Positions 2,344 to 53,825 of a DNA stretch of 64,000 bases are shown here, one piece after another; the stretch's first letter is position 1, and every line of letters starts with the position of its first letter. Source of the DNA: a virus. Below the pieces are notes generated by a model that was given only the letters and a program-made list of their open reading frames with translations, had not been told where the DNA came from and did not search any database. The stretch is from IMG/VR virus record IMGVR_UViG_3300045988_179398, positions 60,111-124,110 of that record. One strand, 5' to 3'. The position numbers were made by a program, and so were the translations under genes.

Positions 2344-5300
2344 ATGGCGGTTTATAAACCAAGTAATTGCGTCCCGTTTTTATCTTGTTGGGATTTGACG
2401 CAGCCCCAATACATTAGCGGAGAATTGAACACTTCGAATGAAACCGTGACGGGGTATAAAGTTAGAGTTTTAGATAGTGAAAATAACACAATTTTTGAAG
2501 GGAGCGAGTTTAACCCAATAAACTTTTCAGACAAAGTAATAAACAGCGGTCTCAACGGCTCAATTTTAACTCTTCCCTTAATTGTTTCGGTTGATAACTT
2601 GGAGACTGCGGATGCGCAGTATAATTTTATATATTATCAGAAAGGGCAAAATAAGTGGTATGGTTTTGCCAAAAACTCTTTTTACGAAATCTCCAATTTT
2701 TCGAACAATTATCCCGACCAGCCATACAAATGGCAGATAACGCTCGCACAGGGTCAGCAAAACATAGATGGTGTTCTTGAACAGCAACCCTCCGACGAAT
2801 ACTTCGATATGGTAATCGACGAAGCAAAAATTCTCGGCTCGACTGGAAACCGTATTCAGAGTTGGTTGTCGGAAAATATATACAAAGATTATTACATTCA
2901 ATTATACGACGCAAGTAACAACGAACTCGGCGTGAGAACGCGCATCTCGAGTTACGATCATTCTTATGGTTTCATATACCCGCAAGAAAATACGATTTCG
3001 CAAGAATTGGTCGATAGTGCGAGTTACTTTAAAATCTTCAAAGACACGAATGACCCGCAATACGTTTCAACGGCGAGGTTGATTAATTACAGGTTAAAGA
3101 CCGATATAGACAAGGTTGTGCTTGATGGTAAATTCCCGATAAATACTGAAAGTTTCGATGGTAGATTTAAACCTTCGGGAGATCCTTCTGTAGTTTCAAA
3201 CCCTTATTTTACGCAGGTTTATGACGGGGATGTAACGAGTAATGTTACTTACGGAGCTTATACAAGGACAGAGAATACCACACCCCTCGCGGAAGGTACG
3301 ACGTTTTTACTTATGTATCAAGGCGATACAAATACCGAACCAAACCCTACTTATAATAAATATAATGGTGTGTTTGCTTTCCAGTCGGCAGAGTTTAAAG
3401 ATGGGAAAACCACGATTAAATGGTTACGCCCCGCTAACTTCAACAAATACTCCGATTTTCTTAATCGGTTGATTTGCGTTCAAAGCGAAAACACAAATTA
3501 CAGCACGAGCGCGACGGCAGAAAATCTCGGTACGATTAACCAAACCGAATTGATGTTCTACGACGAAACCGCGATAGGGTTATACCCCGTTTACGAAGAC
3601 GGAACCAAGACTCTGAAAGTCGCGGAGGTAACGCTCGCCAATTCCGCGATAGGGAAGCCGCAAAATTTTGAGGGCGGCATCATTTCGTCGGTAAAGGTCA
3701 AAGCTCAACTAACGGGGGTAACCTTAACTGCGATTTGTCTTGGCGGTAATAAGTATGTTGTTAAAGCGCCAGATACATATACAGGAACGGCAACCGTAAA
3801 TATCACCTATATGGAAGATAAAGGTGAAGTTTTCAAAAATACGGCGGGAAAGGCGTATATACGCCCGTTTATTGGAATTCATGCGGGCGATAAACTTTTT
3901 TATGGGAAGGACTTTGCTTCAAGCGTTACAATCGATTATATCGATGACGTCGGTAATTCGAAGAACAAATTTAGCCCGACGTGGTATATCGAATACAACT
4001 CCGCCGAGAAGAAGTTGGACCTCGACGATAAATATTCGATTCGTTCGTTCTTCAAAACAAGCGACGAAAACCCGTTTTACGCAAAAGCTTCGCCCGTTTT
4101 AACCATCGATTGCGATCAATGGGAGAAAGATAGCGAAGATAAATATTACAAAAACGAGTACGGTTATTGCGTATGCAAAAGAAGATATGTAACATTTAAA
4201 GGCACAATTACCAATCGCAACTGGGTTAATTATCAATGGGTATTAACAGACCTTACGACCAACAACACCCAGATTTCCGAGAAAATTTATCGCGGTAGTA
4301 CGGAATGCACTTTTTACGGATTACAAAACGACCATTATTACGAAATATCTTGGATAGTTGAAGACGAGTTTGGCGGCATTTTTACCTGCGAGCAAGTCTT
4401 TTTCTTAGACGTATCCATCAACGACAGCCCGTTCCCGTTCGAAGCGAAATATGAGTGCGAAACGCAATCGGTGCTCATCAACTTCGCCAGAGATGGCGTA
4501 ATTATCCCCGATCCTGCATTATATAGTTACGATACGTTTATGGTGAGGGTGGAAGAAGGTTCTAATATTTATCAGCCTTACATTGTGAAAGGGGAGAAAA
4601 ATCTCAAGTATACTTATAGGGTTTTGGCTGAAAATAACTTTGACCCCGATAAGGCCGATTACACGATAGAATACGTTGACACCGATACGGACAATGGTTA
4701 TCTTCAATTAGGCGACATACAACCCGAAACTCCGTCCCCCGACCTTACTTATCTTATGAGTTATACGATGACGCAGATAGGAGACTCTGAATCGGCAACG
4801 GGTGAAATCCCCGCGCCAACATCGGATGATTTTGCGCTCAATTCACAGCACGTTCTTAACGCGAATTTTGTCGGCGATGTGATAACTTACGAAATTGACA
4901 TCGAAGATTTTAACGATTTGCCTGCGCACATAGGGTTAGCGGTAGAATTATTGCCTCCGTCTAAAACTAATGCGGAAGGAGAGGTTGAGGCAGAAGAAAA
5001 CCGCAACAAGATAAAGTTGAATTGTTATAAAAAAATCAACAACGGGGCGCCTTTGAATAAATATGAAATCTTTTTCAACATTTTCAAAAAAGATGGCGGC
5101 GGCAAATGGGTAAAAGATGAGAGCGGAAAATGGCAAGAAGAAAATCCCGTTGTCTCAGCATGGATACCCGACAAGGGTTATACGGCAAAAGACAACCGCG
5201 ATTATATTCCCACAACACACCCATACGTTTGGGACGGTACGAAACAAGCTCCCGACAATAATTACTTAAACATCACGGGCGAGGGCGCGCTAAACAGCAG

Positions 5301-26468: not shown

Positions 26469-27005
26469 ATGCAAGTAAAATGTCAAATTTGCGGCAAATC
26501 AATCGACCGTTCAACTGCATATAAAGTCGTGGTCAGCGGCACGAACAAATATTTTTGCTCGGAAGAAGAATTCAACGCTGATAAAGCCCGCAAAGACCAC
26601 GCGAAAGAAGTTCTCGAAACGATTGCGGAGTGTTATCAATATTGCTCTGGTTATGGGGAACCGCCTTATAACGTGGTTAAAAAAGAACTTAAAGAAAACC
26701 TCAAAACGGTCGATATCGAGACGATTTATCAATTCGTAAAAGAAAACCGCGAAAAACTCAAAAAGACGATTGAAAAGAAAATCGAACGAGATGGACCGTT
26801 TTCGCAGGTTTATTTCTTGTTTAGGTATGTGAGTGGGATAATAAAACGGGAAATACTTGAACACGGTTGGAAGGCGGCACAAGTCGCGCCGACCATTCAA
26901 AAAACTGGGATTGATTTGAATTTTTATAATGTCAAACCGAACACAAATCAACTTAAAAAGAGACGCTCGTTAGATGAATTGGAGGATCAACTACTCAGCC
27001 CTTAA
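26469..27005 (+). CDS. zinc-finger protein (possible replication accessory / helicase-loader position)
   Basis: N-terminal CQICG...YFCSEEEF motif. GGAGG RBS. Sits just upstream of the IscB insertion and the DnaB-like helicase. Confidence 0.5.
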   Translation: MQVKCQICGKSIDRSTAYKVVVSGTNKYFCSEEEFNADKARKDHAKEVLETIAECYQYCSGYGEPPYNVVKKELKENLKTVDIETIYQFVKENREKLKKTIEKKIERDGPFSQVYFLFRYVSGIIKREILEHGWKAAQVAPTIQKTGIDLNFYNVKPNTNQLKKRRSLDELEDQLLSP

Positions 27006-27217
27006 AAAGGTGTGGGCTTGCCCACTAGTTGATCAGACTAAGTGTTAAGCTACGTTATCAAAGAATATATAGGCACCGTAGGATGTATTCTCCAGTCTTA
27101 CGCTCTGCGGTATGTGATTAAACAGTTCTGATGAGTAGGAACAGTGTTGCATACGAAAACCTTTGAATAACATTGTCGTGGAGTAACCACTCTAACATAT
27201 AGGAGGCTATAAAAGCA
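27006..27217 (+). ncRNA. candidate IscB omegaRNA (HEARO-type), encoded 5' of iscB
   Basis: 212-nt ORF-free stretch directly upstream of iscB. Nested inverted repeats GATCAACTA (26985-26993) / TAGTTGATC (27026-27034) and AGCCC/GGGCT. Placement follows the known IscB architecture. Confidence 0.5.
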
Positions 27218-28498
27218 ATGGTATATGTATTAAATAAACAAGATGAACCAATAATGCCTTGCAAGGAAGCGAAAGCAAGAAAATTGCTTAAACAGAGTAA
27301 GGCAAAAATAGCAAAACACGAACCGTTTACAATTCAGTTATTGTTCGATTGTGAAAATCAGATACAAGAAGTAAATTTGGGAATTGATGCGGGAAGTAAA
27401 CATATTGGTGTTTCGGCAACGACAGAAAAGCAGGTCTTATACGAGGCAGATGTTGAGCTGAGAAATGATATTGTTAATAAGTTATCTTCTCGTCGCGAGG
27501 CTCGTAGAACTCGTAGAAACAGATTAAGATACCGCCCCGTAAGGTTTAATAATCGAATTAAATCAAAATATAAAGAGTGGTTAGCTCCGAGTATTAAACA
27601 AAAGATAAACACGCATATTCAAGTTATAAAACACTTATACGAAATTTTGCCGATAACAAATCTCATTGTAGAAACCGCTCAATTTGATATTCAAAAGATG
27701 AATAATTCCGAGATATCAGGTGAAGGATATCAACAAGGTGAACAATTGGGATTTTGGAATGTAAGAGAGTATGTGCTTTACCGCGACAATCACGAATGTC
27801 AATATTGCCACGGTAAATCAAAAGACAATATATTAAATGTTCATCATATTGAAAGTCGGAAAACAGGCGGAAATGCACCAAATAATTTAATTACTTTGTG
27901 TGAAACTTGTCATAAAGCTTATCATAAAGGCGAGATTAAATTAAATCTAAAGCGCGGTAAAAGCTATCGGGACGCGGCATTTATGGGTATTATGCGTAAA
28001 ACATTACTTAATCGATTACGCGTGTTATATCCAAATGTTTGCGAAACGTATGGCTATATAACCAAGAACGTTCGTATCGAAAATAACTTGCCAAAAGAAC
28101 ATTATATAGACGCTCGGTGTATAAGTGGTAATCCAAAAGCAAATCCATTAGATTATTACATTTATCAGAAATGTGTCAGAAGACAGAACAGACAAATTCA
28201 TAAAAATAAAATTTTAAGCGGCAGCCGAAAGAGAAATAATCAAGCACCAAGATATGTTTTCGGGTTTAAACTCTTTGATCTTGTAAAATATAATAAACAA
28301 AATTACTATGTTTTTAGCAGAAGAACAAGTGGCGCCTTTGATATAAGAAATCTTAATGGAGAAAAAATAAACAATGGTTCAATAAGTTATAAGAAACTTA
28401 AAAAGATTAAACACAATTCAACAAAACTAATAGAAAGGAGGCGGCAATTCCTCTGCATCTCTAAAAGGGATGTGGTTTCTTTGCCGAAAATTTTATGA
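27218..28498 (+). CDS. iscB: IscB RNA-guided endonuclease (RuvC-HNH, Cas9-ancestor type)
   Basis: PLMP-like PIMP at the N-terminus. RuvC-I LGIDAGSKHIG. Arg-rich bridge helix RREARRTRRNRLRYR. RuvC-II IVETAQFD. HNH CQYCHG..VHHIESR..N..CETCH. RuvC-III EHYIDA. Confidence 0.85.
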   Translation: MVYVLNKQDEPIMPCKEAKARKLLKQSKAKIAKHEPFTIQLLFDCENQIQEVNLGIDAGSKHIGVSATTEKQVLYEADVELRNDIVNKLSSRREARRTRRNRLRYRPVRFNNRIKSKYKEWLAPSIKQKINTHIQVIKHLYEILPITNLIVETAQFDIQKMNNSEISGEGYQQGEQLGFWNVREYVLYRDNHECQYCHGKSKDNILNVHHIESRKTGGNAPNNLITLCETCHKAYHKGEIKLNLKRGKSYRDAAFMGIMRKTLLNRLRVLYPNVCETYGYITKNVRIENNLPKEHYIDARCISGNPKANPLDYYIYQKCVRRQNRQIHKNKILSGSRKRNNQAPRYVFGFKLFDLVKYNKQNYYVFSRRTSGAFDIRNLNGEKINNGSISYKKLKKIKHNSTKLIERRRQFLCISKRDVVSLPKIL

Positions 28499-46280: not shown

Positions 46281-47111
46281 ATGTACAGACAAGGACTTGG
46301 GAGCATAACCTCCCCACAATCAATTCACAACTCAATAATAACTCAGCTTCCTCAAAAATCAACGATAGAATCAGACAAAATTACGACTCAAACCCTAATC
46401 ATCTCACTCAACTCAATGATGGGATTTGCGTATTTGCAACGAGACAATCGGACGATAATGGCGAAAGCGACGAAAATAAGCGTTTACGAAGAAATAAACC
46501 AAATAACGGGCGAAGTAACCTATCGCCAGACGACGGAATTCAGCGAGCGATACGGCAAACCGCCAGTTTACGTCACAACGCTTGAAAGCGAGATAACCGC
46601 CGCCCAGTACACAGATCTCAAAGAGCACAGCTTATACGAACCATATCAACGCAGAGAGATATGGTTTATCGACAACGAAAGCGGACGTGAATACCGTTTA
46701 ACGACGCGAGAGAACACGCTCTCGATAGAGATGTACTCGAAAGCGATAAACGCTGATTACAGCCTACCCCAATGGCTATACGACATAGTGTACCAAGAAG
46801 ACGGGAAGTATATACGGGATTACACCGAGACGAAGGCAAAATGGCGCGAGAAGCAAGAAGCGGCAATCGCTGCACGCAAAGCCGAGATTCAAGCCCGCAA
46901 AGACGCCGAGGCGGCGGAGCGCAAGCGTAAAGCAGCGGAGAAAAAGAAAGCGCAGGCGGCGGCTAAGAAAGCCAAGTCTTTACCAAAACAGACAAAGAAA
47001 ATTACCAAAAGTGATAAAAAGGTATCTGTCATGAGCAAGCCTGTAACAGAGAAAAAGAAGCGAGAAGAAACGGTAGCCGATATGTGGAGCAATTGGGCGA
47101 AAGGAAAGTAA
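46281..47111 (+). CDS. hypothetical protein with Lys/Ala-rich C-terminal region
   Basis: AAGAGGA RBS. Alternative start at 46458. Confidence 0.5.
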   Translation: MYRQGLGSITSPQSIHNSIITQLPQKSTIESDKITTQTLIISLNSMMGFAYLQRDNRTIMAKATKISVYEEINQITGEVTYRQTTEFSERYGKPPVYVTTLESEITAAQYTDLKEHSLYEPYQRREIWFIDNESGREYRLTTRENTLSIEMYSKAINADYSLPQWLYDIVYQEDGKYIRDYTETKAKWREKQEAAIAARKAEIQARKDAEAAERKRKAAEKKKAQAAAKKAKSLPKQTKKITKSDKKVSVMSKPVTEKKKREETVADMWSNWAKGK

Positions 47112-47183
47112 TCGATTTATAAAAGCTCTTAAAATCGCAGATAATTACAGGCTTTTTTCAAACGTTTTATGAAAGGAGAAATT

Positions 47184-47435
47184 ATGGAAAACATCCATCC
47201 GAACGGAAGAATTTGCGTTGAAAGAGACACGCGAAATTGGGAAAGGAATTTATCGAATTTGGTAAAATCGTTACTCGATTTGGATTACGAAATTCAACTA
47301 AAACAAACCGATGACGAAGTGGTGATTTTGGACTTCACGTATGACTCGAGCAAGATAGAGAATCATGGGAATCGTTATCTACTTGTTACGGAAAAAGAAG
47401 AGAAAGAAATAACCGAACGCAGAGAGGAGAAGTAA
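47184..47435 (+). CDS. hypothetical protein (weak paralog of 42472-42762)
   Basis: AAGGAG RBS before ATG 47184. Confidence 0.55.
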   Translation: MENIHPNGRICVERDTRNWERNLSNLVKSLLDLDYEIQLKQTDDEVVILDFTYDSSKIENHGNRYLLVTEKEEKEITERREEK

Positions 47436-47655
47436 TCAAATTTCATTCTTGTTTAAAGCAGCGCAGCGAAGCGAGCAGAAGCAAAGCGATGAATAAAAAA
47501 TAAAAAGAGATTTTGTTCTCGGAAAGCGCGCAGCGCGAGCCGAGCCGCGTTTTGGGAGGCAGGGAACTCTTTTGGGGCGGCTGAGCCAAAAGGTTCCCTG
47601 TAACAGAGAATAAAAAAATAAATCGAAATAATTCCAAAAAAGTCGTATAAAATAC

Positions 47656-47684
47656 TTGACAAAAGAAAAATATTGTGGTATAAT
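47656..47684 (+). promoter_or_regulatory. sigma-70-type promoter P12
   Basis: TACTTGACA, 17 nt, TGGTATAAT. Followed by a 180-nt structured leader (10-bp stem 47813-47822 / 47834-47843). Confidence 0.7.
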
Positions 47685-47868
47685 AGAAGCAGATAGTGGA
47701 GGAGTGGGCAAAGGCGTATCCGCCGCCCATGAATTCCCTATATCTACCCCTTACTTAATTCTTTAAGGGTTGGGCTCAAAATCGCCCATTTTATCGAAGA
47801 TTTTAGAGCGAGTTAGCACTTTTTAATATTGCGAAAGTGCTAAAACAGTTATTTTAAGGAGTAAAATC

Positions 47869-49236
47869 ATGTTCGAATTAAGCGAATTTAGTTACCAAGA
47901 TTGTATTAATTTAGACGAAGAAAGTTACCAAGAAAATGTAGAAATTAACATTGTAGATGCGATATGTGGCAGTGGCAAAACATCGGCAGCAATTAACATG
48001 ATTAATAGTTCCGACGAGGAACAAAGATTTCTTTATATTACCCCTTATCTTGATGAAGTGAATCGTATAATTGAAAGTTGTCCCAATAAACATTTTAGAC
48101 AACCAGAAATTTATGGAACGAAAACAAATGGTATCAAATATCTTCTTGAAAAGGGTGTTAATATAGTATCGACACACGCATTGTTTAAAAATTTTGACAC
48201 AGAAATTATCAAACTCGTAAGGGCAATGAATTACATTCTCGTAATGGACGAAGTTGCCGAAGTTGTAGAAATGCTCGATATAAGCAAGAGCGATCTGCAG
48301 ATAGTGCTTGGTAAAACAGAATTACAAGATAACGGTCTTCTAAAGTGGACAGACAAAGAGTACACGGGTGAATTATGGAATTATCGTAGATTGTGCGAAT
48401 TAAATGCGGTATTTTATCATAATAACACGGCACTATTGTACCTCTTCCCAGTAGATTGTTTTAAGGCTTTTAGTAAAGTTTATGTTCTTACTTATATGTT
48501 TGACGCCCAAGTACAGAGATATTATTATGACTTTTACGGAGCAAAATTCAAATATATAGGCGTTGAGGGTGACAAAGTTAAAAATTATCATTTTGTTGAT
48601 AATCTAGTGGAATCTGATAACAGCAAATTCGTTAAACTAATAACAATTGAAGATAGTGAAACACTAAACGCTTCGGGCAAAGAGCCTTTTTCATTGTCGG
48701 TCTCTTGGTATGAAAAAAATATAAAAAGTTATGCCGAAGGAATTAAGAATAATCTTTATAATTTTTTCCGAAACAAATCTAAAACTCCTTCAAACAAAAA
48801 CCTTTGGACGGTGTTTAAAGATTACAAAAAGCAACTTCAAGGAAAAGGATATGCCAAATCTTTCTTATCTTGCAATGCCAGAGCAACCAACGCTTATTCT
48901 GATAGAACAGCAGTAGCGTATATGTGTAACATCTTTTTCAACCCCATTCTTAAAAATTTCTTCGAAAGCAAAGGCGTAAGAATAGAAGAAGATAAATGGG
49001 CTTTATCAGAATTCCTTCAATTTATGTTTAGAAGCGGTATAAGAAAGGGTGAACGTATTCGGATTTATATTCCCTCGTTAAGAATGCGCAATTTGTTAAA
49101 AAGATGGATGGTTGGAATGTATGATGACAAAATAGATCCAGAAAATCAAGAACAAATCCCAATCGAAGATAAACTCGAAAAAGCAAAAGCGCTGATAAAT
49201 AAATATAATTTGAATGATATATCTCAAGATGCTTGA
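47869..49236 (+). CDS. SF2 helicase-like P-loop ATPase
   Basis: Motif I CGSGKTSAA. Motif II LVMDEV. Motif VI-like QFMFRSGIRKG. Confidence 0.55.
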   Translation: MFELSEFSYQDCINLDEESYQENVEINIVDAICGSGKTSAAINMINSSDEEQRFLYITPYLDEVNRIIESCPNKHFRQPEIYGTKTNGIKYLLEKGVNIVSTHALFKNFDTEIIKLVRAMNYILVMDEVAEVVEMLDISKSDLQIVLGKTELQDNGLLKWTDKEYTGELWNYRRLCELNAVFYHNNTALLYLFPVDCFKAFSKVYVLTYMFDAQVQRYYYDFYGAKFKYIGVEGDKVKNYHFVDNLVESDNSKFVKLITIEDSETLNASGKEPFSLSVSWYEKNIKSYAEGIKNNLYNFFRNKSKTPSNKNLWTVFKDYKKQLQGKGYAKSFLSCNARATNAYSDRTAVAYMCNIFFNPILKNFFESKGVRIEEDKWALSEFLQFMFRSGIRKGERIRIYIPSLRMRNLLKRWMVGMYDDKIDPENQEQIPIEDKLEKAKALINKYNLNDISQDA

Positions 49237-49261
49237 CAACCACGTTCAAAAGTGATATAAT
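49233..49261 (+). promoter_or_regulatory. sigma-70-type promoter P13
   Basis: ATGCTTGACA, 17 nt, TGATATAAT. Overlaps the stop of the upstream gene. Confidence 0.7.
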
Positions 49262-49309
49262 AAAACCATAGAAACAAACCGTGTCGAAATCGACACTTTT
49301 GGGGGACCC

Positions 49310-49840
49310 ATGAAAACATACGAACGCGAACTCGAACTCGGCTTCGAAGTATCCGCCGCCCAGGCGATTAAAGCTATAACCCGCGAGAACATGATAATTC
49401 TCCAACAAAATATAATTCACCAGACGTGGCTCGAAGATGGCGAAGTCAGCGATTACAAATTCCGCACCAGAATACGCAGGACCGAAATCACATATCCCGA
49501 TGCAAATGGCTCGTGGACAAGCAAATGCGAGTTCACGACCAAATACTCGAAGAACGACGAGAAGGCGGCGACACAGGATAATATGGAGCTCAACGCCGAA
49601 ATCACGCCCGAAGAATACGAGAAGTTGAAGAAGATTTACGAGGCGGCGGGCAAAGAAGAAGTAATGAAAATTCGAACCTACTTCAGAACACCGCTTAACA
49701 CGCTTTCGATTTACACGCTCGACACCTACCCGAACGAAAAAGGCGACAGAGCACGCATCGAAATCGAATTCAAAAACAAACAAGAAATGGAGGATTGGAG
49801 GGCACCCGATTGGCTTCAAGATTTAGTTCTGAAGAGATGA
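49310..49840 (+). CDS. CYTH-domain (triphosphate tunnel metalloenzyme) protein
   Basis: N-terminal YERELELGF (ExExK-like). C-terminal ARIEIEFKNKQEMEDWRAPDWL, the typical CYTH end. Confidence 0.5.
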   Translation: MKTYERELELGFEVSAAQAIKAITRENMIILQQNIIHQTWLEDGEVSDYKFRTRIRRTEITYPDANGSWTSKCEFTTKYSKNDEKAATQDNMELNAEITPEEYEKLKKIYEAAGKEEVMKIRTYFRTPLNTLSIYTLDTYPNEKGDRARIEIEFKNKQEMEDWRAPDWLQDLVLKR

Positions 49841-49860
49841 CCGCCGCCTAAAGGAATCGT

Positions 49861-50121
49861 ATGGCAAAGAAGAAACCAGACCAGCTCTGTTGGAACTGCA
49901 AACGCGCCGTGAATTGCGAACCGCTTACCTGCCCGTGGGCAGCTTTCGGGAAGCCGATTGACGGTTGGAAGGCAGAGAAATCAGAGTTCAGAGATGGATT
50001 CGGTAGCAGCGTTAAAATCGTAAAAACATACTGCATAACCGAATGCCCGCTTTTCATCCAGGACAGAACGAGGGAAGAGAGTGTTTACACGCTTTGGCCC
50101 GACGGACGACTTTGGTATTAA
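49861..50121 (+). CDS. zinc-ribbon protein, paralog 1 of 3 (short form)
   Basis: LCWNCKRA..CPWA..GKPIDGWKA...ECPLFIQD. Confidence 0.6.
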   Translation: MAKKKPDQLCWNCKRAVNCEPLTCPWAAFGKPIDGWKAEKSEFRDGFGSSVKIVKTYCITECPLFIQDRTREESVYTLWPDGRLWY

Positions 50122-50148
50122 GTTGGCAGAAAATCAGCAAGGAATTAC

Positions 50149-50655
50149 ATGACAAAAAAAGTAGTAAAAACAATCAAACGAAAGTCGAGAAAAACGGTTG
50201 AAATAGATGAAATCGAAAAGAGAACAGGCGGCGGAATAGGCAGTCAACAGCTCTGCTGGAACTGCAAACGTGCCTGTAATACGGCAGATCATAAATGCCC
50301 GTGGGCAGACAGGGGAGAACCCATCGAGGGGTGGAAAGCGACCCCGACGAGATGGAAAGATCGCGGCCTCGAAATCAGGAGCTATGACATCGTTGAATGC
50401 CCGCTTTTCGTCAAAGATAAGCCCTTTACGGACTACGCCGAGGTGATAAAATACGTCGCCGAAAAGCTCGGATTTTGCGTAGAATACATACGGCGTAATT
50501 ACGAGAAAATGATGGCTCGTTACGAAGACCAGACGGGGGATAAACTCCCGCTTTGGGTATGGGAAAGACAGCCCTACAAAACGAAGAAAAACATCAGCGA
50601 ACAGGGCAAAAGCATCGCCGCTCGAAAGATAAAACAGGCGGCGGGAAGGAAGTAA
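50149..50655 (+). CDS. zinc-ribbon protein, paralog 2 of 3 (with C-terminal helical extension)
   Basis: LCWNCKRA..CPWA..GEPIEGWKA...ECPLFVKD, then YAEVIKYVAEKLGFCVEYIRRNY. Confidence 0.6.
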   Translation: MTKKVVKTIKRKSRKTVEIDEIEKRTGGGIGSQQLCWNCKRACNTADHKCPWADRGEPIEGWKATPTRWKDRGLEIRSYDIVECPLFVKDKPFTDYAEVIKYVAEKLGFCVEYIRRNYEKMMARYEDQTGDKLPLWVWERQPYKTKKNISEQGKSIAARKIKQAAGRK

Positions 50656-50656
50656 A

Positions 50657-51145
50657 ATGGGAGCGAAAATGGAAGAAAATATGGGACAAAAAACAAACCA
50701 AGAACAAGTTGCAATCAAACGTACCAAGAGCAACGGTCGTAAGGAATATGACCTCTACGCCGACACGCTTTGTTGGAACTGCAAACGCTGCACAAACCCC
50801 GATTCTCACCCGTGCCCTTGGGCGGAAAAAGGTGAGCCGATCGAAGGTTGGACCGCCGCCCCAGGGAGAGAATTTTTCCATTACCTCCAGACGGGCGAAA
50901 AGGTGAGTTTGGGCCGCTCCTACGTGGTTACGGCTTGCCCGCTCTTCGTCCAGGATAGACCGTTCTCGACCTACGCAGAAGGCATTCAATGGGTTGCCGA
51001 TGCACTCGAAATCTCTCCGAGCACGGTCTTGGGAAAGCCCGCTCTTTACTTCCAAAAGTACGAAGAGGTCTACGGTAAGAAGCTGCCCCATTGGCTCGTG
51101 AATTACGGTGCCGAAAGAATCGCATTCCCGAATAATCTGAAATAA
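50657..51145 (+). CDS. zinc-ribbon protein, paralog 3 of 3 (with HTH-like C-terminal extension)
   Basis: LCWNCKRC..CPWA..GEPIEGWTA...ACPLFVQD, then YAEGIQWVADALEISPSTV. Confidence 0.6.
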   Translation: MGAKMEENMGQKTNQEQVAIKRTKSNGRKEYDLYADTLCWNCKRCTNPDSHPCPWAEKGEPIEGWTAAPGREFFHYLQTGEKVSLGRSYVVTACPLFVQDRPFSTYAEGIQWVADALEISPSTVLGKPALYFQKYEEVYGKKLPHWLVNYGAERIAFPNNLK

Positions 51146-51179
51146 TCGAAATTATTTTTCAAAAAGCGGTTGTAAACGC

Positions 51180-51208
51180 TTGACAAAGCCATTACAAAGT
51201 GGTATAAT
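51180..51208 (+). promoter_or_regulatory. sigma-70-type promoter P14 (no CDS downstream)
   Basis: AAACGCTTGACA, 17 nt, TGGTATAAT. Confidence 0.75.
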
Positions 51209-51214
51209 GTACTT

Positions 51215-51514
51215 GCAAGCTGAAAGAGCGGTGTTGGATATCGTGTGCAAAGTTGTTGCCGCTCAAGCTTGTACCAACCCTCAAAGGGTTACAATTAAAT
51301 ATCCGCCGCCTCTAACGCAACATCCCATTGGCGGCGGAACAAAGCTCACACCAGGCGGCGGGAATAGAAAAGAAATTAAGTCCATTTGACTATCACCTCA
51401 CTATGTAAGCAAAAAGAATTAAGCAAAACAAATGAGAGATAATCGTCCATTTTTGCGAGAACCTCCTTACCGCCGCCGCGAAACCCTGACCGAAAGGTTG
51501 GGGTTCTTTCTTTA
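51215..51514 (+). ncRNA. candidate ncRNA of about 300 nt, bounded by a promoter and a terminator
   Basis: Bounded by P14 and the terminator at 51483-51514. No ORF with an RBS. Internal stems GAGCGG 51236 / CCGCTC 51260 and CCGCCGCC 51303 / GGCGGCGG 51330, plus a second GGCGGCGG at 51354 and a second CCGCCGCC at 51471. Confidence 0.5.
51483..51514 (+). terminator. rho-independent terminator
   Basis: 10-bp stem AACCCTGACC / GGTTGGGGTT (two G:U pairs), GAAA loop, then CTTTCTTT. Confidence 0.65.
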
Positions 51515-51879
51515 CCCAAATTTCGCGTTTAAGCTTTTTATTTCCCAGTAATCTTGGGGCTTCGTCGGGAATTCTGATCGGGGACGAGTAAACTATCGTC
51601 CCGACACCAAACGCCCAGCAAACCTGCACGGCAAATGGCAAGTGCGAGAGATATTGGCTTTAAGCAAGCGAATTAGGCGGCGGACAGTAATCAGCCAGAA
51701 GAGTTGTCTCCGCTTCCGCGATTGCTTATACCAGAGGGAAACCCCAGAGAGAGTATTCGACGCCCAAGTTTAGACTCCGCTCCTCGTTGGCTTAGAACAG
51801 AGAGCAAAGAGCAGAGAAAGCCGATAGCGAGCGAATGACGGGTTGGAGAGAGATTGGAGGGAAGACACCCCTATTATTG

Positions 51880-52130
51880 TACGAGTATATACTCCATATT
51901 TCATTCTTACTCTATACGAGTATGTACTCGTAGTAATCATAGTTCCGTACTTCTAATATACTCTTCTAGTATATATACTCTTATATCGGATATATTCTTT
52001 CAGAATATATCCTCTTAAACTATTCACTTCGTTCATAGTTTAGGTTTAATATTATTCTTTTATTATTTACTTAGCTTAATACAAGTGAAGAGTATATATT
52101 ACCAGTAAACTTAATATGAGTATATTAGAA
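51880..52130. repeat. AT-rich iteron/palindrome array (candidate replication origin)
   Basis: GAGTATAT at 51883, 52090 and 52118, with variants at 51918 and 51967. ATATACTC at 51887, 51956 and 51973. 12-bp palindrome GAGTATATACTC. TACGAGTA-TG-TACTCGTA at 51915-51932. 11-bp inverted repeat GGATATATTCT/AGAATATATCC at 51988-52012. Confidence 0.5.
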
Positions 52131-52155
52131 TTCTTATATAATAACTATCCTTATT

Positions 52156-52197
52156 ACGCGTGAGCGCACATCACGCATGCATGCGCATAATGCGCGT
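52156..52197. repeat. GC-rich nested palindrome next to the AT-rich array
   Basis: ACGCG...CGCGT arms enclosing the 12-nt perfect palindrome CGCATGCATGCG (52174-52185). Confidence 0.6.
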
Positions 52198-52289
52198 CCG
52201 AGGGGTAGAAGATAAGCGAAGCGAACAAAGCGCCCGCCGCCCAAGCAAAAAAATCCCCGAAATATTTTTTAAAAACCGCCGCCAAACGC

Positions 52290-52318
52290 TTGACAATCTC
52301 TCCGTGTTGTGGTATAAT
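52290..52318 (+). promoter_or_regulatory. sigma-70-type promoter P15
   Basis: CCGCCGCCAAACGCTTGACA, 17 nt, TGGTATAAT. The leader contains the hairpin CCGCCGCC 52369 / GGCGGCGG 52397. Confidence 0.75.
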
Positions 52319-52427
52319 GTTCTCGTAAGTTGAGAGCGGCGATCACCGCCCCGCTTATCACGGTTTATCCGCCGCCTTAAAACACAGCATCTCCTCGGCG
52401 GCGGGCAGACCATTCACAGGAGGGTTT

Positions 52428-52772
52428 ATGAAACTTGAATCTTGTCGCAATCTTACAAGCGACGAAACCGAAACTACGATCACAATGATGGGCAGCGGTG
52501 CCGATGGCTTCCGCGTCTACACAACCAGCAACTCGATGCTGACGAAAATAGGCAAACTCCTCGACGTGCCCGACACGGCTTGGAAGCTCGAAAAGGTCGA
52601 GCGTTACTCTGACGGGGTTCCATCGGGCTACTTCTTCACTTGCTCGGTTAAGAACTGCTTACAGCTTAAAGCCAAAAAGGTAAGCAGAGAGCTCACGGAA
52701 GAGGAAAAAGAGGCGCTCGCTCAGCGTTTCGCAGCAAGCAGAGCGGAGAAAACAACCCGAAATCAAATCTAA
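52428..52772 (+). CDS. hypothetical protein (last + strand gene)
   Basis: AGGAGGG RBS. Confidence 0.6.
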   Translation: MKLESCRNLTSDETETTITMMGSGADGFRVYTTSNSMLTKIGKLLDVPDTAWKLEKVERYSDGVPSGYFFTCSVKNCLQLKAKKVSRELTEEEKEALAQRFAASRAEKTTRNQI

Positions 52773-52921
52773 GGTGAAAATCTCCCAACGCGGCTGGGAA
52801 ATAAAAGACAATTCGAGGTCGGGTTGAATACTCACCCGTCTCGAAGTCTTTTTCGGAAATTTAGGCTAATCAATTGGCTCACTCGCAAAATTCTTTTGCA
52901 TATATATACTCCTAAGAGGGG

Positions 52922-52958
52922 CGGCGGTCCGTATAGTTCGGGCTGCCGTTCTTTTTTT
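52922..52958 (+). terminator. rho-independent terminator
   Basis: 9-bp stem CGGCGGTCC / GGGCTGCCG followed by TTCTTTTTTT. Confidence 0.65.
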
Positions 52959-53285
52959 ATAGACGCAGGGCAGTCGTCTGGGAAAAATAGGGCGTCCATG
53001 GTGGTCGAGAAAAATGGGCGCGTTCATGCGATTTGAGCGTGAGCGAAAAAACGTGGCGGCGCGTTAGGAAGAAAAAAGGGGGTGGCAGAGGAAAGAAAAT
53101 GTGCCCCCGTGGGGAAAATGGCCCGCATAGTAAGGGTTGCTGGGTCTTTATTTATAGTGGCGGATGGCAGTCCACTTTCGATTATTCAACGGTTACTTCG
53201 AGAAACCCGTTGCAGCTGCTGGAACATCCGCGTTTTTAAGGCGGTGCGGATGAAAGACCGCCGTGTTGTTACGGGTTAGCGACGG

Positions 53286-53366
53286 TTATCTCCCGCCGCC
53301 GTGCATGTAGTAGCAAAACATCACGAAAATAATCGAGGCTATAAACAGCCAACCAAAACCGACCAT
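53286..53366 (-). CDS. hydrophobic micropeptide (26 aa, below ORF-track cutoff)
   Basis: AGGAGG 7 nt upstream. MVGFGWLFIASIIFVMFCYYMHGGGR. Starts 1 nt after the stop of the preceding micropeptide. Confidence 0.45.
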   Translation of the reverse strand: MVGFGWLFIASIIFVMFCYYMHGGGR

Positions 53367-53367
53367 G

Positions 53368-53448
53368 TCAAAACCTCCTGTTATTGTCTTGAGTTACTTT
53401 TACTGCCACATAGATTACAACAAACCATATAAACCACGCAAGTACCAT
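53368..53448 (-). CDS. hydrophobic micropeptide (26 aa, below ORF-track cutoff)
   Basis: ATG shares its A with the TGA stop of the 53448-53825 gene. GGAGG upstream. MVLAWFIWFVVIYVAVKVTQDNNRRF. Confidence 0.45.
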   Translation of the reverse strand: MVLAWFIWFVVIYVAVKVTQDNNRRF

Positions 53449-53825
53449 CACATCACCTCCTTGTAATTATCAATTGCCCACTGGCAATCTTTTTTCGTGT
53501 TATATTTTCCGAAGCAAGTTAACGTGCTGAATTCCTGTTTGTAGCGGTTGTAAACAACCCACCAAACCTTTCCGTCTAACGCTGTTCTTTGCCTCGGCTC
53601 GAACCGACTTTCTTCCTTGTAGAACGTAATCCTTTTACCCGTTTCTGCGTTGCAGTTGTAGAAGTAATATTCGTTGCAGAATTTCTCGAAATCCATTCCT
53701 TTCGGAATTTCATACGGAGAAATCCACTTCGAGTACGGGTTGACTTTGCTTGCGGTTGCGTAAACCGCTTTACCTTCTGCGTGCATTTTGCGAGCCTGAG
53801 TTTTTGTTATTTTTTCGTAGTTCAT
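53448..53825 (-). CDS. hypothetical protein
   Basis: AGGAGG RBS. Confidence 0.6.
   Translation of the reverse strand: MNYEKITKTQARKMHAEGKAVYATASKVNPYSKWISPYEIPKGMDFEKFCNEYYFYNCNAETGKRITFYKEESRFEPRQRTALDGKVWWVVYNRYKQEFSTLTCFGKYNTKKDCQWAIDNYKEVM

What the first reader, a model, noticed from the sequence alone, without database searches (positions are those of the whole stretch)
51180..51514. A consensus early promoter drives an RNA of about 300 nt with no ORF and alternative CCGCCGCC/GGCGGCGG pairings
P14 is as good as any promoter in the window. Yet the next 300 nt contain no ORF with an RBS and end at a strong GAAA-tetraloop terminator (51483-51514). The RNA contains a 5' hairpin (GAGCGG/CCGCUC). 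It then has CCGCCGCC (51303), which can pair with either GGCGGCGG at 51330 or GGCGGCGG at 51354. The second CCGCCGCC (51471), just before the terminator, can pair with whichever G-tract is left free. That is a switch-like topology. The P15 leader carries an analogous CCGCCGCC-20 nt-GGCGGCGG hairpin (52369-52404) whose loop contains CUCCUC, complementary to the downstream GGAGGG RBS.
Basis: seen in the sequence. Interest (0 to 1): 0.65.

Follow-up and report, generated by a model that had tools for sequence, protein, structure and literature searches.

The report
Gene-less relic transcription unit in phage
A strong phage promoter and terminator do bracket about 300 nt with no gene, but related phages show this is the shell of a small protein gene that was lost, not an RNA switch.

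Summary
A perfect TTGACA-17-TGnTATAAT promoter (51180-51208), no plus-strand ORF with a ribosome-binding site, a strong terminator (51482-51514) and four CCGCCGCC/GGCGGCGG words are all present.

The switch interpretation does not hold.
- In all 11 related contigs with an intact gene in this slot, the equivalent promoter drives a 103-119 aa coiled-coil gene ("geneX"). Two further lineages show decay: a frameshifted 78-aa version and a 29-aa stub.
- The window has no geneX. Its 5' half (51215-51341) is a paralogue of the two-hairpin leader that normally precedes the next gene (52428). Its 3' half (51342-51514) is the geneX 3'UTR plus terminator.
- The two GC-clamp helices therefore come from two different parental transcripts.
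- Nearest-neighbour pairings have probability above 0.98. Alternatives cost at least 7 kcal/mol, and none overlaps the terminator.
- Close variants replace part of the RNA or delete its promoter.

The 8-mers pair interchangeably because CCGCCGCC is a locus-wide word. It occurs 21 times in 46.6-53.3 kb on both strands, in coding DNA and, in relatives, in promoter spacers. It is fully retained in 82% of aligned sites against 39% background. That word cluster is unexplained and is the more interesting feature.

The parts
51146..51179 (+). A/T-rich upstream tract followed by AAACGC, immediately 5' of the -35 hexamer
   Evidence: All 14 consensus promoters in the window share the same upstream pattern, an A/T tract and then (A)AACGC-TTGACA.
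51180..51208 (+). Sigma-A/sigma-70-type promoter P14 (TTGACA, 17 nt, TGgTATAAT). The transcription start is inferred at about 51215-51217.
   Evidence: It is 98.6% identical in L021-L027. It is deleted in variant L028.
51215..51272 (+). Leader hairpin 1, starting at the inferred 5' end (outer stem GCAAGCU/AGCUUGU, inner stem GAGCGG/CCGCUC). It is a paralogue of the first hairpin in the gene-52428 leader.
   Evidence: Minimum-free-energy fold. The first 60 nt match the L014 gene-52428 leader at 58 of 60 positions. The outer stem shows a C-G to U-A compensatory change in 5 of 12 leaders.
51276..51290 (+). Small hairpin ACCCUC-AAA-GGGUU, specific to the window lineage
   Evidence: It is absent from the other leaders.
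51302..51338 (+). Leader hairpin 2: a CCGCCGCC / GGCGGCGG clamp with a 19-nt loop. The anti-SD CUCCUC found in functional leaders has decayed here to CAUCCCAUU.
   Evidence: The pairing probability is 0.9995. L014 has a compensatory CCACCGCC/GGCGGUGG pair in its own copy.
51342..51481 (+). Remnant of the type-A 3'UTR of the lost geneX. It has a closing stem (GGCGGCGG 51354-61 with CCGCCGCC 51470-77), a 29-nt core at 51371-51399, and CCUCC-type boxes at 51392-99 and 51459-68.
   Evidence: It is homologous to the sequence after the geneX stop codon in L006, L016 and L020. The core is replaced by a sequence 14 nt shorter in L021-24. Identity to L021-type contigs is 94%, the same as third-codon positions of the neighbouring gene.
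51482..51514 (+). Rho-independent terminator (10-bp stem, GAAA loop, T-tract)
   Evidence: The stem has a C-G pair where L006 and L021-24 have U-A. It occupies the same position as the geneX terminator in relatives, and the tail TTACCC(A/G)AATTTC is shared with L003/L004.
52290..52427 (+). P15 promoter plus the genuine two-hairpin leader of gene 52428. It is the paralogue of the P14 5' half.
46597..53300 (.). Cluster of 21 copies of the word CCGCCGCC, on both strands. The four copies inside the P14 unit are members of this cluster.
   Evidence: 13-22 copies at the same locus in the relatives that cover the whole region. One search gives the extended logo T-N-N-CCGCCGCC-Y. One search shows synonymous positions invariant at one coding site. 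One search shows 82% full retention against 39% background.

Best explanation
The 51180-51514 unit is the shell of a small protein-coding transcription unit that has lost its coding sequence.

In related phages (about 131-146 kb, from gut-type metagenomes; the nearest isolates by DnaE are large Clostridioides phages), the same promoter slot lies after the last Zn-ribbon gene. There it drives a 103-119 aa coiled-coil gene (geneX, starting MKYYSE/MRYYSD), followed by a structured 3'UTR and a terminator.

In the window lineage the ribosome-binding site and coding sequence are gone. In their place sits a second copy of the two-hairpin 5' leader that normally precedes the next gene downstream (52428). 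That copy is fused about 12 nt before the first GGCGGCGG of the geneX 3'UTR.

Host RNA polymerase probably still makes a stable, highly structured RNA of about 300 nt early in infection (inferred, not shown). Its helices are inherited from two unrelated parental RNAs:
- a 5'-terminal stabiliser-type hairpin and a GC-clamped hairpin from the leader;
- a closing stem and the terminator from the 3'UTR.

These helices fold independently and do not form a switch.

The interchangeable 8-mers exist because CCGCCGCC is a word selected throughout this 6.7-kb locus. It most likely acts as a double-stranded-DNA protein-binding site (operator-like), since it occurs on both strands, in coding DNA in several reading frames, and inside promoter spacers in relatives. 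The RNA itself most likely has no dedicated function, or at most a minor one.
For: Shown by tool results:
- Synteny: zf genes, then promoter, geneX, 3'UTR, terminator, AT-rich block, P15 and gene 52428, in L002-L005, L008, L009 and L012-L016.
- The window has no geneX anywhere (tblastn best E = 0.41).
- Decay intermediates exist. In L006/L018 only the first 24 aa of geneX are conserved (78-aa ORF). In L020 geneX is reduced to 29 aa.
- The window 3' half is homologous to the sequence after the geneX stop codon in L006, L016 (intact geneX) and L020.
- The window 5' half is 84-86% identical to the gene-52428 leaders of L014 and L006, and 58 of the first 60 nt match L014.
- In the orphan copy the loop anti-SD has decayed while the stem is kept.
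- Nearest-neighbour helices have probability above 0.98. Alternatives cost at least 7 kcal/mol.
- Constraint looks relaxed in close variants. The 3' half is 94% identical, the same as third-codon positions of the adjacent gene. A core segment is replaced by a sequence 14 nt shorter in L021-24. L028 has a 415-bp deletion that removes the promoter and hairpin 1.
- The word is locus-wide and under nucleotide-level selection. It sits in promoter spacers in L003/L004, L020 and L021-24.
- No Rfam family matches.

Inferred: that the RNA is made and stable, the order of the rearrangement events, and the DNA-binding role of the word.
Against: - The promoter and terminator stay perfect, and the gene-less unit persists in contigs from at least six samples. 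In three of the four lineages carrying this 3'UTR type, geneX is damaged yet the promoter, 3'UTR and terminator are kept. That pattern would also fit selection on the RNA or on the DNA sites within it.
- The promoter plus 5' half shows 3 differences in 196 nt against about 6% at neighbouring third-codon positions. This is slightly more conserved than neutral, although mosaic recombination confounds the comparison.
- Two CCUCC-type boxes, which resemble the 16S rRNA 3' end, are kept in all 3'UTR variants.
- There are no expression data of any kind.
Confidence: 0.7

Rival explanations
1. The unit is kept for its DNA, not its RNA. It carries four copies of the CCGCCGCC word within 175 bp, the densest sub-cluster in the window. 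A matching sub-cluster lies at 52234-52404. Together they flank a highly conserved AT-rich block (51870-52160) full of GAGTATAT-type repeats. The words would be binding sites for a phage protein, with the adjacent Zn-ribbon/HTH paralogues as candidates. That protein would act as an operator array on the four local promoters, or organise an origin-like or partition-like region. This is compatible with the relic explanation rather than exclusive of it.
For: - The word occurs on both strands, in several reading frames and in non-coding DNA.
- It is fully retained at 96 of 117 aligned sites, against 47 and 49 of 117 for the flanking 8-mers and 39% background.
- There is an asymmetric flank preference, with T at -3 in 103 of 158 distinct instances.
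- The word lies inside the promoter spacer, 3-4 nt after the -35 hexamer, in three different promoter lineages.
- The cluster boundaries are conserved in relatives.
- The AT-rich block is 93.6% identical to L006 and rich in repeats.
- The zf2/zf3 C-terminal region is predicted with confidence as three helices, with an HTH-like sequence VADALEISPSTV.
Against: - No binding protein has been identified. Pfam, PHROGs, NCBIfam and PDB sequence searches gave nothing for the local proteins. The AlphaFold model is poor overall (pLDDT 57).
- L014 carries a compensatory double change in the leader hairpin (CCACCGCC/GGCGGTGG). This argues that at least that pair is selected for base pairing rather than for the exact word.
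- The GC-skew turning point here is explained by convergent gene orientation and would suit a terminus rather than an origin.
Confidence: 0.3
2. The transcript is a functional trans-acting RNA. One version is a 3'UTR-derived small RNA whose CCUCC-type boxes pair with Shine-Dalgarno sequences of target mRNAs. The other is a decoy that titrates whatever factor binds the gene-52428-type leader hairpins.
For: - It has its own consensus promoter and terminator.
- The unit persists while geneX decays in L006, L020 and the window lineage.
- A 29-nt core is identical in the window, L006, L016, L020 and L028.
- The boxes AUCACCUC and ACCUCCUUA / CACCUCC are kept in all variants.
- The fold is more stable than shuffles (z = -3.2).
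Against: - The core is replaced in the closest relatives, L021-24.
- The promoter is deleted in L028.
- Divergence of the 3' half equals that of synonymous sites.
- Most relatives lack this 3'UTR type altogether.
- No target has been identified and Rfam has no match.
Confidence: 0.13
3. One reading: a riboswitch-like or attenuator RNA in which CCGCCGCC at 51303 toggles between GGCGGCGG at 51330 and at 51354, and CCGCCGCC at 51470 takes the free partner.
For: All four 8-mers are perfectly complementary in any combination. The RNA is strongly structured.
Against: - Alternatives are 7.3-11.4 kcal/mol above the minimum-free-energy fold, with ensemble probability below 1e-4.
- The fully swapped state (51303 with 51354, and 51330 with 51470) would be a pseudoknot.
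- No alternative helix overlaps the terminator stem (51482-51505) or a ribosome-binding site, so there is no regulated output.
- No ORF lies downstream before the terminator.
- The two helices sit on separate transcripts in every relative that has an intact gene.
- No aptamer family matches.
Confidence: 0.03
4. The plus-strand RNA is an antisense regulator, like a type I antitoxin, of a small minus-strand peptide gene. The conserved core, read on the minus strand, is GAGGTGATAGTCAAATGGAC, that is an SD followed by ATG.
For: - Two minus-strand ORFs have strong SDs: start 51450 (24 aa, AAGGAGG) and start 51385 (34 aa, GAGGTGA).
- By hand translation of the L016 and L020 sequences, the second ORF encodes a hydrophobic peptide starting MDLIS(V/I)LC.VLIYL.AAWC.LIK. 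It is 23 aa in L020 and runs on to about 50 aa in L016.
- L006 keeps the reading frame across a 24-nt indel.
Against: - No minus-strand promoter was found in the window, L020 or L006. L016 has only a weak 9-of-12 match about 130 nt away.
- The window and L028 are frameshifted after codon 6 by a 5-nt insertion.
- L021-24 have lost the start codon.
- The first ORF is absent from L016 and L020.
Confidence: 0.05

Closest known systems
Pseudogene or relic transcription units in mosaic phage genomes (promoter and terminator surviving the loss of the coding sequence)
   Same: The slot is syntenic with an intact gene in relatives. The promoter, 3'UTR and terminator are homologous. Graded decay states are seen in sister lineages (frameshifted, 29-aa stub, coding sequence absent).
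   Different: The coding sequence was not simply deleted. It was replaced by a paralogous copy of a neighbouring gene's 5' leader, which produces a leader-3'UTR fusion RNA.
5'-terminal stem-loop mRNA stabilisers of Firmicutes and their phages (for example the B. subtilis aprE and ermC leaders and the phage SP82 stabiliser; from my own knowledge, not checked here)
   Same: Hairpin 1 begins at or within a few nucleotides of the inferred transcription start. It is conserved, with a compensatory change, across 12 leaders that precede a ribosome-binding site.
   Different: The transcription start and RNA half-life have not been measured. In the P14 copy there is no coding sequence to protect.
Riboswitches and transcription-attenuation leaders
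   Same: A structured RNA lies between a promoter and an intrinsic terminator, with repeated complementary segments.
   Different: There is no known aptamer, no antiterminator overlapping the terminator, no downstream regulated ORF, and no conserved alternative pairing.
3'UTR-derived and C-rich, SD-targeting small RNAs of Gram-positive bacteria (for example RoxS/RsaE; from my own knowledge)
   Same: The 3' half is a former 3'UTR that ends at an intrinsic terminator and carries two CCUCC-type boxes.
   Different: No targets are known. The core is not conserved in the closest variants. Most relatives have a different 3'UTR.
Operator arrays or dispersed centromere-like and iteron-like words bound by a phage or plasmid protein
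   Same: A short word is repeated about 20 times in a few kilobases, in both orientations. It is conserved at the nucleotide level, recurs in promoter spacers, and flanks an AT-rich repeat block.
   Different: The word is only 8-11 bp long, is dispersed through coding DNA over 6.7 kb, and has no identified binding protein. At two places the copies also form RNA hairpins, one of which shows a compensatory change.

Membership tests
Riboswitch / attenuator leader | Match to a described aptamer or leader family | tested here: not met
   An Rfam 15 search at gathering thresholds over the whole window found only HEARO and a tRNA. A permissive search of 51100-52500 gave only noise (best E = 0.68, all far below gathering scores).
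Riboswitch / attenuator leader | Mutually exclusive helices, one of which overlaps the terminator stem or a ribosome-binding site | tested here: not met
   CCGCCGCC at 51470-77 lies outside the terminator stem (51482-51505). Alternative pairings cost at least 7 kcal/mol and have probability below 1e-4.
Riboswitch / attenuator leader | A regulated ORF downstream in the same transcript | tested here: not met
   No ORF with an SD lies before the terminator. The next gene (52428) has its own consensus promoter 1.1 kb further on.
Riboswitch / attenuator leader | Conservation of the architecture in homologous regions | tested here: not met
   In relatives the two GC-clamp helices lie in separate transcripts, the gene-52428 leader and the geneX 3'UTR.
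Relic (gene-less) transcription unit | An intact orthologous gene at the syntenic position in relatives | tested here: met
   geneX of 103-119 aa, with a ribosome-binding site, follows the equivalent promoter in 11 contigs.
Relic (gene-less) transcription unit | Flanking non-coding parts homologous to those of the intact unit | tested here: met
   The promoter region is 76% identical to L006. The 3'UTR and terminator are homologous to L006, L016 and L020.
Relic (gene-less) transcription unit | Coding sequence absent, with signs of relaxed constraint | tested here: met
   No tblastn hit for geneX in the window. The 3' half diverges at the same rate as synonymous sites. A core segment is replaced in L021-24 and the promoter is deleted in L028.
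Trans-acting small RNA | Own promoter and terminator giving a discrete RNA | tested here: met
   Sequence signals only. Expression cannot be tested with these tools.
Trans-acting small RNA | Conservation above the neutral rate, with a conserved seed region | tested here: inconclusive
   The 29-nt core is identical in five lineages but replaced in L021-24. The CCUCC boxes are kept. The 3' half is no more conserved than third-codon positions.
Type I toxin-antitoxin | Small hydrophobic ORF with an SD, antisense to the RNA, conserved in frame | tested here: inconclusive
   A 23-aa hydrophobic ORF is present in L020, and the same ORF runs on to about 50 aa in L016. It is frameshifted in the window and L028, and its start is lost in L021-24.
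Type I toxin-antitoxin | Promoter for the toxin mRNA | tested here: not met
   No minus-strand promoter-like site was found near the ORF in the window or L020. L016 has only a weak, non-conserved match.
phi29-type packaging RNA | Match to the Rfam pRNA model | tested here: not met
   Neither Rfam search returned a hit.
5' stem-loop mRNA stabiliser (for the leader part) | Hairpin at the extreme 5' end, conserved by pairing | tested here: met
   The outer stem is paired in 100% of cells across 12 leaders, with a C-G to U-A change in 5 of them. The 5' end position is inferred from the -10 hexamer.
5' stem-loop mRNA stabiliser (for the leader part) | Increases mRNA half-life | not testable with these tools
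   This needs rifampicin-chase or reporter assays.

The most novel reading that the evidence does not exclude
The gene-less P14 unit is retained because of what it carries, not as junk. There are two versions of this reading.

(a) It is the densest array of a new operator-like or centromere-like word (TnnCCGCCGCC). That word would be bound by a phage-encoded Zn-ribbon/HTH protein family and would organise the early-gene end of these roughly 140-kb Clostridia-type phages. Together with a matching array, it flanks a conserved AT-rich repeat block.

(b) It is a decoy or small RNA made from a leader fused to a 3'UTR, which titrates the factor or the SD sequences that the original leader and 3'UTR interacted with.
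Probability: 0.15. Interest if true: 0.6.

Novelty: new member of a known kind. Interest (0 to 1): 0.25.

Why it matters
For the RNA itself, little. It removes a false lead, an apparent riboswitch-like phage RNA, and shows how mosaic recombination can produce a convincing-looking promoter-hairpins-terminator cassette from parts of two genes.

The by-product matters more. An 8-11 bp word under clear nucleotide-level selection is repeated about 20 times on both strands across one 6.7-kb early-gene segment. It recurs in promoter spacers and is conserved across a clade of uncultivated gut phages of about 131-146 kb. This points to an uncharacterised DNA-protein (or RNA-RNA) system that EMSA or DAP-seq could test directly.

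Tried and rejected
- blastn of 50600-53000 against 50,697 GenBank phage records: no match. The clade is known only from metagenomes.
- Rfam at gathering thresholds and at permissive E-values: nothing at the locus.
- Exact-pattern scans for the 3'UTR core in IMG/VR and in GTDB genomes: only the L006 contig and one MAG contig (L020).
- Pfam, PHROGs and NCBIfam for the eight locus proteins and for geneX: no informative family. The helicase-like protein matches phrog_2467 and gene 52428 matches phrog_1709, both of unknown function.
- PDB sequence search for the zf3 protein: nothing.
- AlphaFold2 on zf3 with a 5-sequence alignment: pLDDT 57. Only the C-terminal three helices are confident, so no fold search was run.
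- Literature search for the word in phage papers: nothing relevant.
- Plus-strand small ORFs (26 aa at 51328, 39 aa at 51432): no SD, and the start of the second is not conserved in L006. Rejected.
- Minus-strand ORFs: considered as a type I toxin. They have strong SDs, but the frame is not conserved and there is no promoter, so this is kept only as a low-probability rival.
- HK022 put-like antitermination by the two-hairpin leader: rejected. In relatives the leader precedes a monocistronic gene, and several lineages lack it.
- Primer or R-loop RNA for the AT-rich block: rejected, because a strong terminator lies about 350 nt before the block.
- Chi-like function for the word: rejected, because orientation is mixed on both sides of the locus.
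Full report

Yes. The sequence has TTGACA-17 nt-TATAAT with TG at -15/-14 at 51180-51208. It is one of 14 perfect extended -10 promoters on the plus strand, where 0.05 are expected. All 14 share an A/T tract and AAACGC just upstream of the -35 hexamer.

The hairpin at 51482-51505 (10 bp, GAAA loop, T-tract to 51514) is the best terminator-like site in 46-64 kb. Between promoter and terminator no plus-strand ORF of 8 aa or more has an SD match of 5 nt or more.

CCGCCGCC lies at 51303 and 51470, and GGCGGCGG at 51330 and 51354. The 300-nt RNA folds at -88.3 kcal/mol (z = -3.2). The fold has a 5' hairpin (51215-72), a clamp hairpin (51302-38), a long-range stem (51354-61 with 51470-77) and the terminator. 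The P15 leader hairpin (52369-52404) and its CUCCUC loop are as described.

**2. What the window is.**

It is a phage. It carries tail genes, a DnaE-type polymerase, a DnaB-like helicase, an RNA ligase, an exonuclease V/Dda-like helicase, and an IscB-like HNH protein preceded by a HEARO RNA. There is no nucleotide match to any GenBank phage. The closest isolates by DnaE (42%) are Clostridioides phages of 132-134 kb. Relatives are IMG/VR and MGnify/Logan contigs; the full-length ones are 131-146 kb.

**3. The homologous slot in relatives.**

Gene order around the finding is conserved. It runs: p49310, two or three paralogous Zn-ribbon proteins, a 1.3-1.8 kb "intergenic" region, the gene-52428 homologue, then minus-strand genes.

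Reading that region in the relatives shows what the promoter after the last Zn-ribbon gene does. In L002, L003, L004, L005, L008, L009 and L012-L016 it is followed by an SD and a 103-119 aa coiled-coil ORF (geneX). The N-terminus, M(K/R)YYS(E/D)..L..(F/Y)DTEE.LFKAE, is conserved. A C-terminal DS(V/I)FD..(S/N)DI motif is conserved in the six distinct full-length sequences other than L016. A 3'UTR and a terminator follow.

The window has no trace of geneX. Two lineages show intermediate decay:
- In L006/L018 only the first 24 residues are conserved, in a 78-aa ORF.
- In L020 (a MAG contig) geneX is reduced to 29 aa.

**4. Origin of the two halves of the window RNA.**

The 3' half (51342-51514) aligns with the sequence immediately after the geneX stop codon in L006 (87.5% by BLAST over 184 columns including gaps), L016 (intact geneX) and L020. 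The shared features are:
- the start ..(A/T)AG(C/T)(T/C)CACACCAGGCGGCGG;
- an identical 29-nt core, AGAAATTAAGTCCATTTGACTATCACCTC;
- a second arm, CCGCCGCC (CCCCGCCGUC in L016, which gives one G-U pair);
- a terminator.

All four sequences fold into the same plan, a closing stem followed by the terminator. The terminator stem has C-G in the window where L006 and L021-24 have U-A.

The 5' half (51215-51341) is not related to the geneX leaders. Instead it is 84-86% identical to the leader of the gene-52428 homologue in L014, L006, L005, L016 and L017. The first 60 nt match L014 at 58 of 60 positions.

Twelve such leaders align into two hairpins that are 98.7% paired. There are two compensatory events: C-G to U-A in the outer stem of hairpin 1 in five sequences, and G-C to A-U in the clamp of L014. 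Sliding the partner columns by 1-3 positions abolishes the pairing. In the genuine leaders the clamp loop keeps a CUCCUC-type anti-SD 15-30 nt before the SD. In the orphan P14 copy the loop has drifted to CAUCCCAUU while the stem is intact.

So the window RNA is a leader fused to a 3'UTR. The coding sequence has been excised almost exactly from ribosome-binding site to stop codon.

**5. Is there a switch?**

No evidence supports one.
- The ensemble probability is 0.9995 for 51303:51330 and 0.987 for 51354:51470.
- Forcing 51303:51354 or 51330:51470 costs 7.3-7.4 kcal/mol. Also leaving 51470 unpaired costs 11.4 kcal/mol.
- The fully swapped state would be a pseudoknot.
- None of the competing helices overlaps the terminator or a ribosome-binding site, so nothing would be switched.
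- In every relative with an intact gene the two clamps are on different transcripts.

**6. Is the RNA under constraint?**

The same gene-less unit occurs in Logan contigs from at least six samples (L021-L027, about 95% identical), so it is not an assembly artefact. Three observations point to relaxed constraint:
- In L021, L022 and L024 (aligned directly; L023, L025 and L027 show the same 14-nt gap in pairwise alignment), the "invariant" core is replaced by a different sequence 14 nt shorter.
- The 3' half is 94% identical, the same as third-codon positions of the adjacent gene.
- In L028 a 415-bp deletion with ACC(A) microhomology removes the promoter and hairpin 1.

The promoter plus 5' half is somewhat better conserved (3 differences in 196 nt), but local mosaicism makes this weak evidence.

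**7. Why the 8-mers pair with one another.**

CCGCCGCC occurs 23 times in the window against 1.09 expected. Twenty-one copies lie in 46597-53300: 11 as CCGCCGCC and 10 as GGCGGCGG on the plus strand. They occur in coding DNA in several frames and in non-coding DNA. Only two pairs form local hairpins.

The relatives that cover the whole region have 13-22 copies at the same locus, and the cluster ends about 900 nt after the start of gene 52428. Further evidence for selection on the word itself:
- At one coding site (TCC GCC GCC in p49310) all three synonymous positions are invariant in six lineages.
- Across 12 relatives the 8-mer is fully kept in 96 of 117 aligned cases. The neighbouring 8-mers are kept in 47 and 49 of 117, and the background is 39%. 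Per-base identity is 96.4% against 83.7%.
- The flanks show T at -3 in 103 of 158 distinct instances.
- In L003/L004 (P14) and in L020 and L021-24 (P15) the word sits in the promoter spacer, 3-4 nt after TTGACA.

My inference is a double-stranded-DNA protein-binding word (operator-like). The adjacent Zn-ribbon paralogues are candidate binders, because their C-terminal half is a confidently predicted three-helix, HTH-like module. This is not shown. The L014 compensatory change says that at least the leader pair is also selected for base pairing.

**8. Rivals.**

Five alternatives were considered:
- a functional small RNA or decoy;
- a DNA-site array flanking the AT-rich repeat block (51870-52160);
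- an antisense or type I toxin remnant, with minus-strand ORFs that have strong SDs but no promoter and no conserved frame;
- pRNA-like or put-like roles.

They are weighed in the dedicated sections of this report. None outweighs the relic explanation. The DNA-site reading is compatible with it.

**9. Verdict.**

The switch is not supported. The unit is a gene-less relic built from a duplicated leader and the 3'UTR and terminator of a lost gene. Interest in the RNA is low. The locus-wide CCGCCGCC word is the unexplained feature worth following up.

Noticed in passing
window 46597-53300 (and the same locus in L001-L024): A cluster of 21 copies of CCGCCGCC lies on both strands, against about 1 copy expected for the whole window. 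It is conserved at the nucleotide level across the clade, with extended logo T-N-N-CCGCCGCC-Y. In some relatives the word lies inside promoter spacers. Its function is unknown.
   Followed up: partly
window 51870-52160: An AT-rich block contains at least 8 GAGTATAT(A)-type repeats in both orientations. It is 93.6% identical to L006, more conserved than the flanking proteins. Dense CCGCCGCC sub-clusters flank it on both sides, which gives an origin-like or packaging-site-like architecture.
   Followed up: partly
window 51515-51870; 51582-51610: This non-coding stretch after the terminator is conserved in relatives (78-91% over 77-150 nt in L003, L014 and L020). A 26-29 nt hairpin segment (GGGACGAgtaaactaTCGTCCC) matches L003, L005 and L014 only as its reverse complement, while the flanks are collinear. 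This looks like a small inversion.
   Followed up: no
window 26986-27190 and 27218-28498: A HEARO RNA (Rfam RF02033, 119.6 bits) lies directly upstream of a 426-aa HNH protein. This is an IscB/omega-RNA-type element inside the phage replication module.
   Followed up: no
L006 4917-5385; L014 about 4240-4340; L011 about 380-500: These are TnpB C-terminal fragments and/or omega-RNA-like right-end remnants. They are inserted next to the geneX terminator (L006), directly after the P14-equivalent promoter (L014), or in place of the gene-52428 leader (L011). The locus is an insertion hotspot.
   Followed up: no
window 49861-50121, 50149-50655, 50657-51145: Three tandem paralogues carry a CWNCKR...C.W...CPLF four-cysteine motif. 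The two longer ones have an HTH-like C-terminal three-helix module. None matches any family in Pfam, PHROGs, NCBIfam or PDB.
   Followed up: partly
window 47656-47868: Another consensus promoter is followed by about 110 nt containing CCGCCGCC (47720) and a terminator-like hairpin (47771-47788 plus TTTTATCG). These come before the SD of the helicase-like gene at 47869. This may be an attenuator or a second short transcript.
   Followed up: no
window 52758-52760 (and L002-L005, L020): Four codons before the stop of gene 52428 the window has CGA where five relatives have in-frame TGA. In L002, L003 and L020 the following codons (NQI-stop) stay conserved. This is either a dispensable tail or read-through.
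   Followed up: no
window 53286-53366 and 53368-53451 (minus strand): Two very small hydrophobic ORFs (26 and 27 aa) have strong SDs. They lie at the end of the minus-strand module, at the convergent junction with the plus-strand genes.
   Followed up: no
L020 2690-2760 and L016 1431-1500 (minus strand): Antisense to the geneX 3'UTR core is a GGAGGTGAT SD, then 6 nt, then ATG. The ORF encodes a hydrophobic peptide beginning MDLIS(V/I)LC.VLIYL.AAWC.LIK, of 23 aa in L020 and about 50 aa in L016. No promoter was found.
   Followed up: partly
L003 (contig start) and L004 (contig end): Two full-length IMG/VR contigs (145 and 146.5 kb) break at positions equivalent to window coordinates of about 48.1 kb and about 53.15 kb. 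Both positions are inside the word cluster. This could mean that a terminal repeat or the physical genome ends lie here.
   Followed up: no
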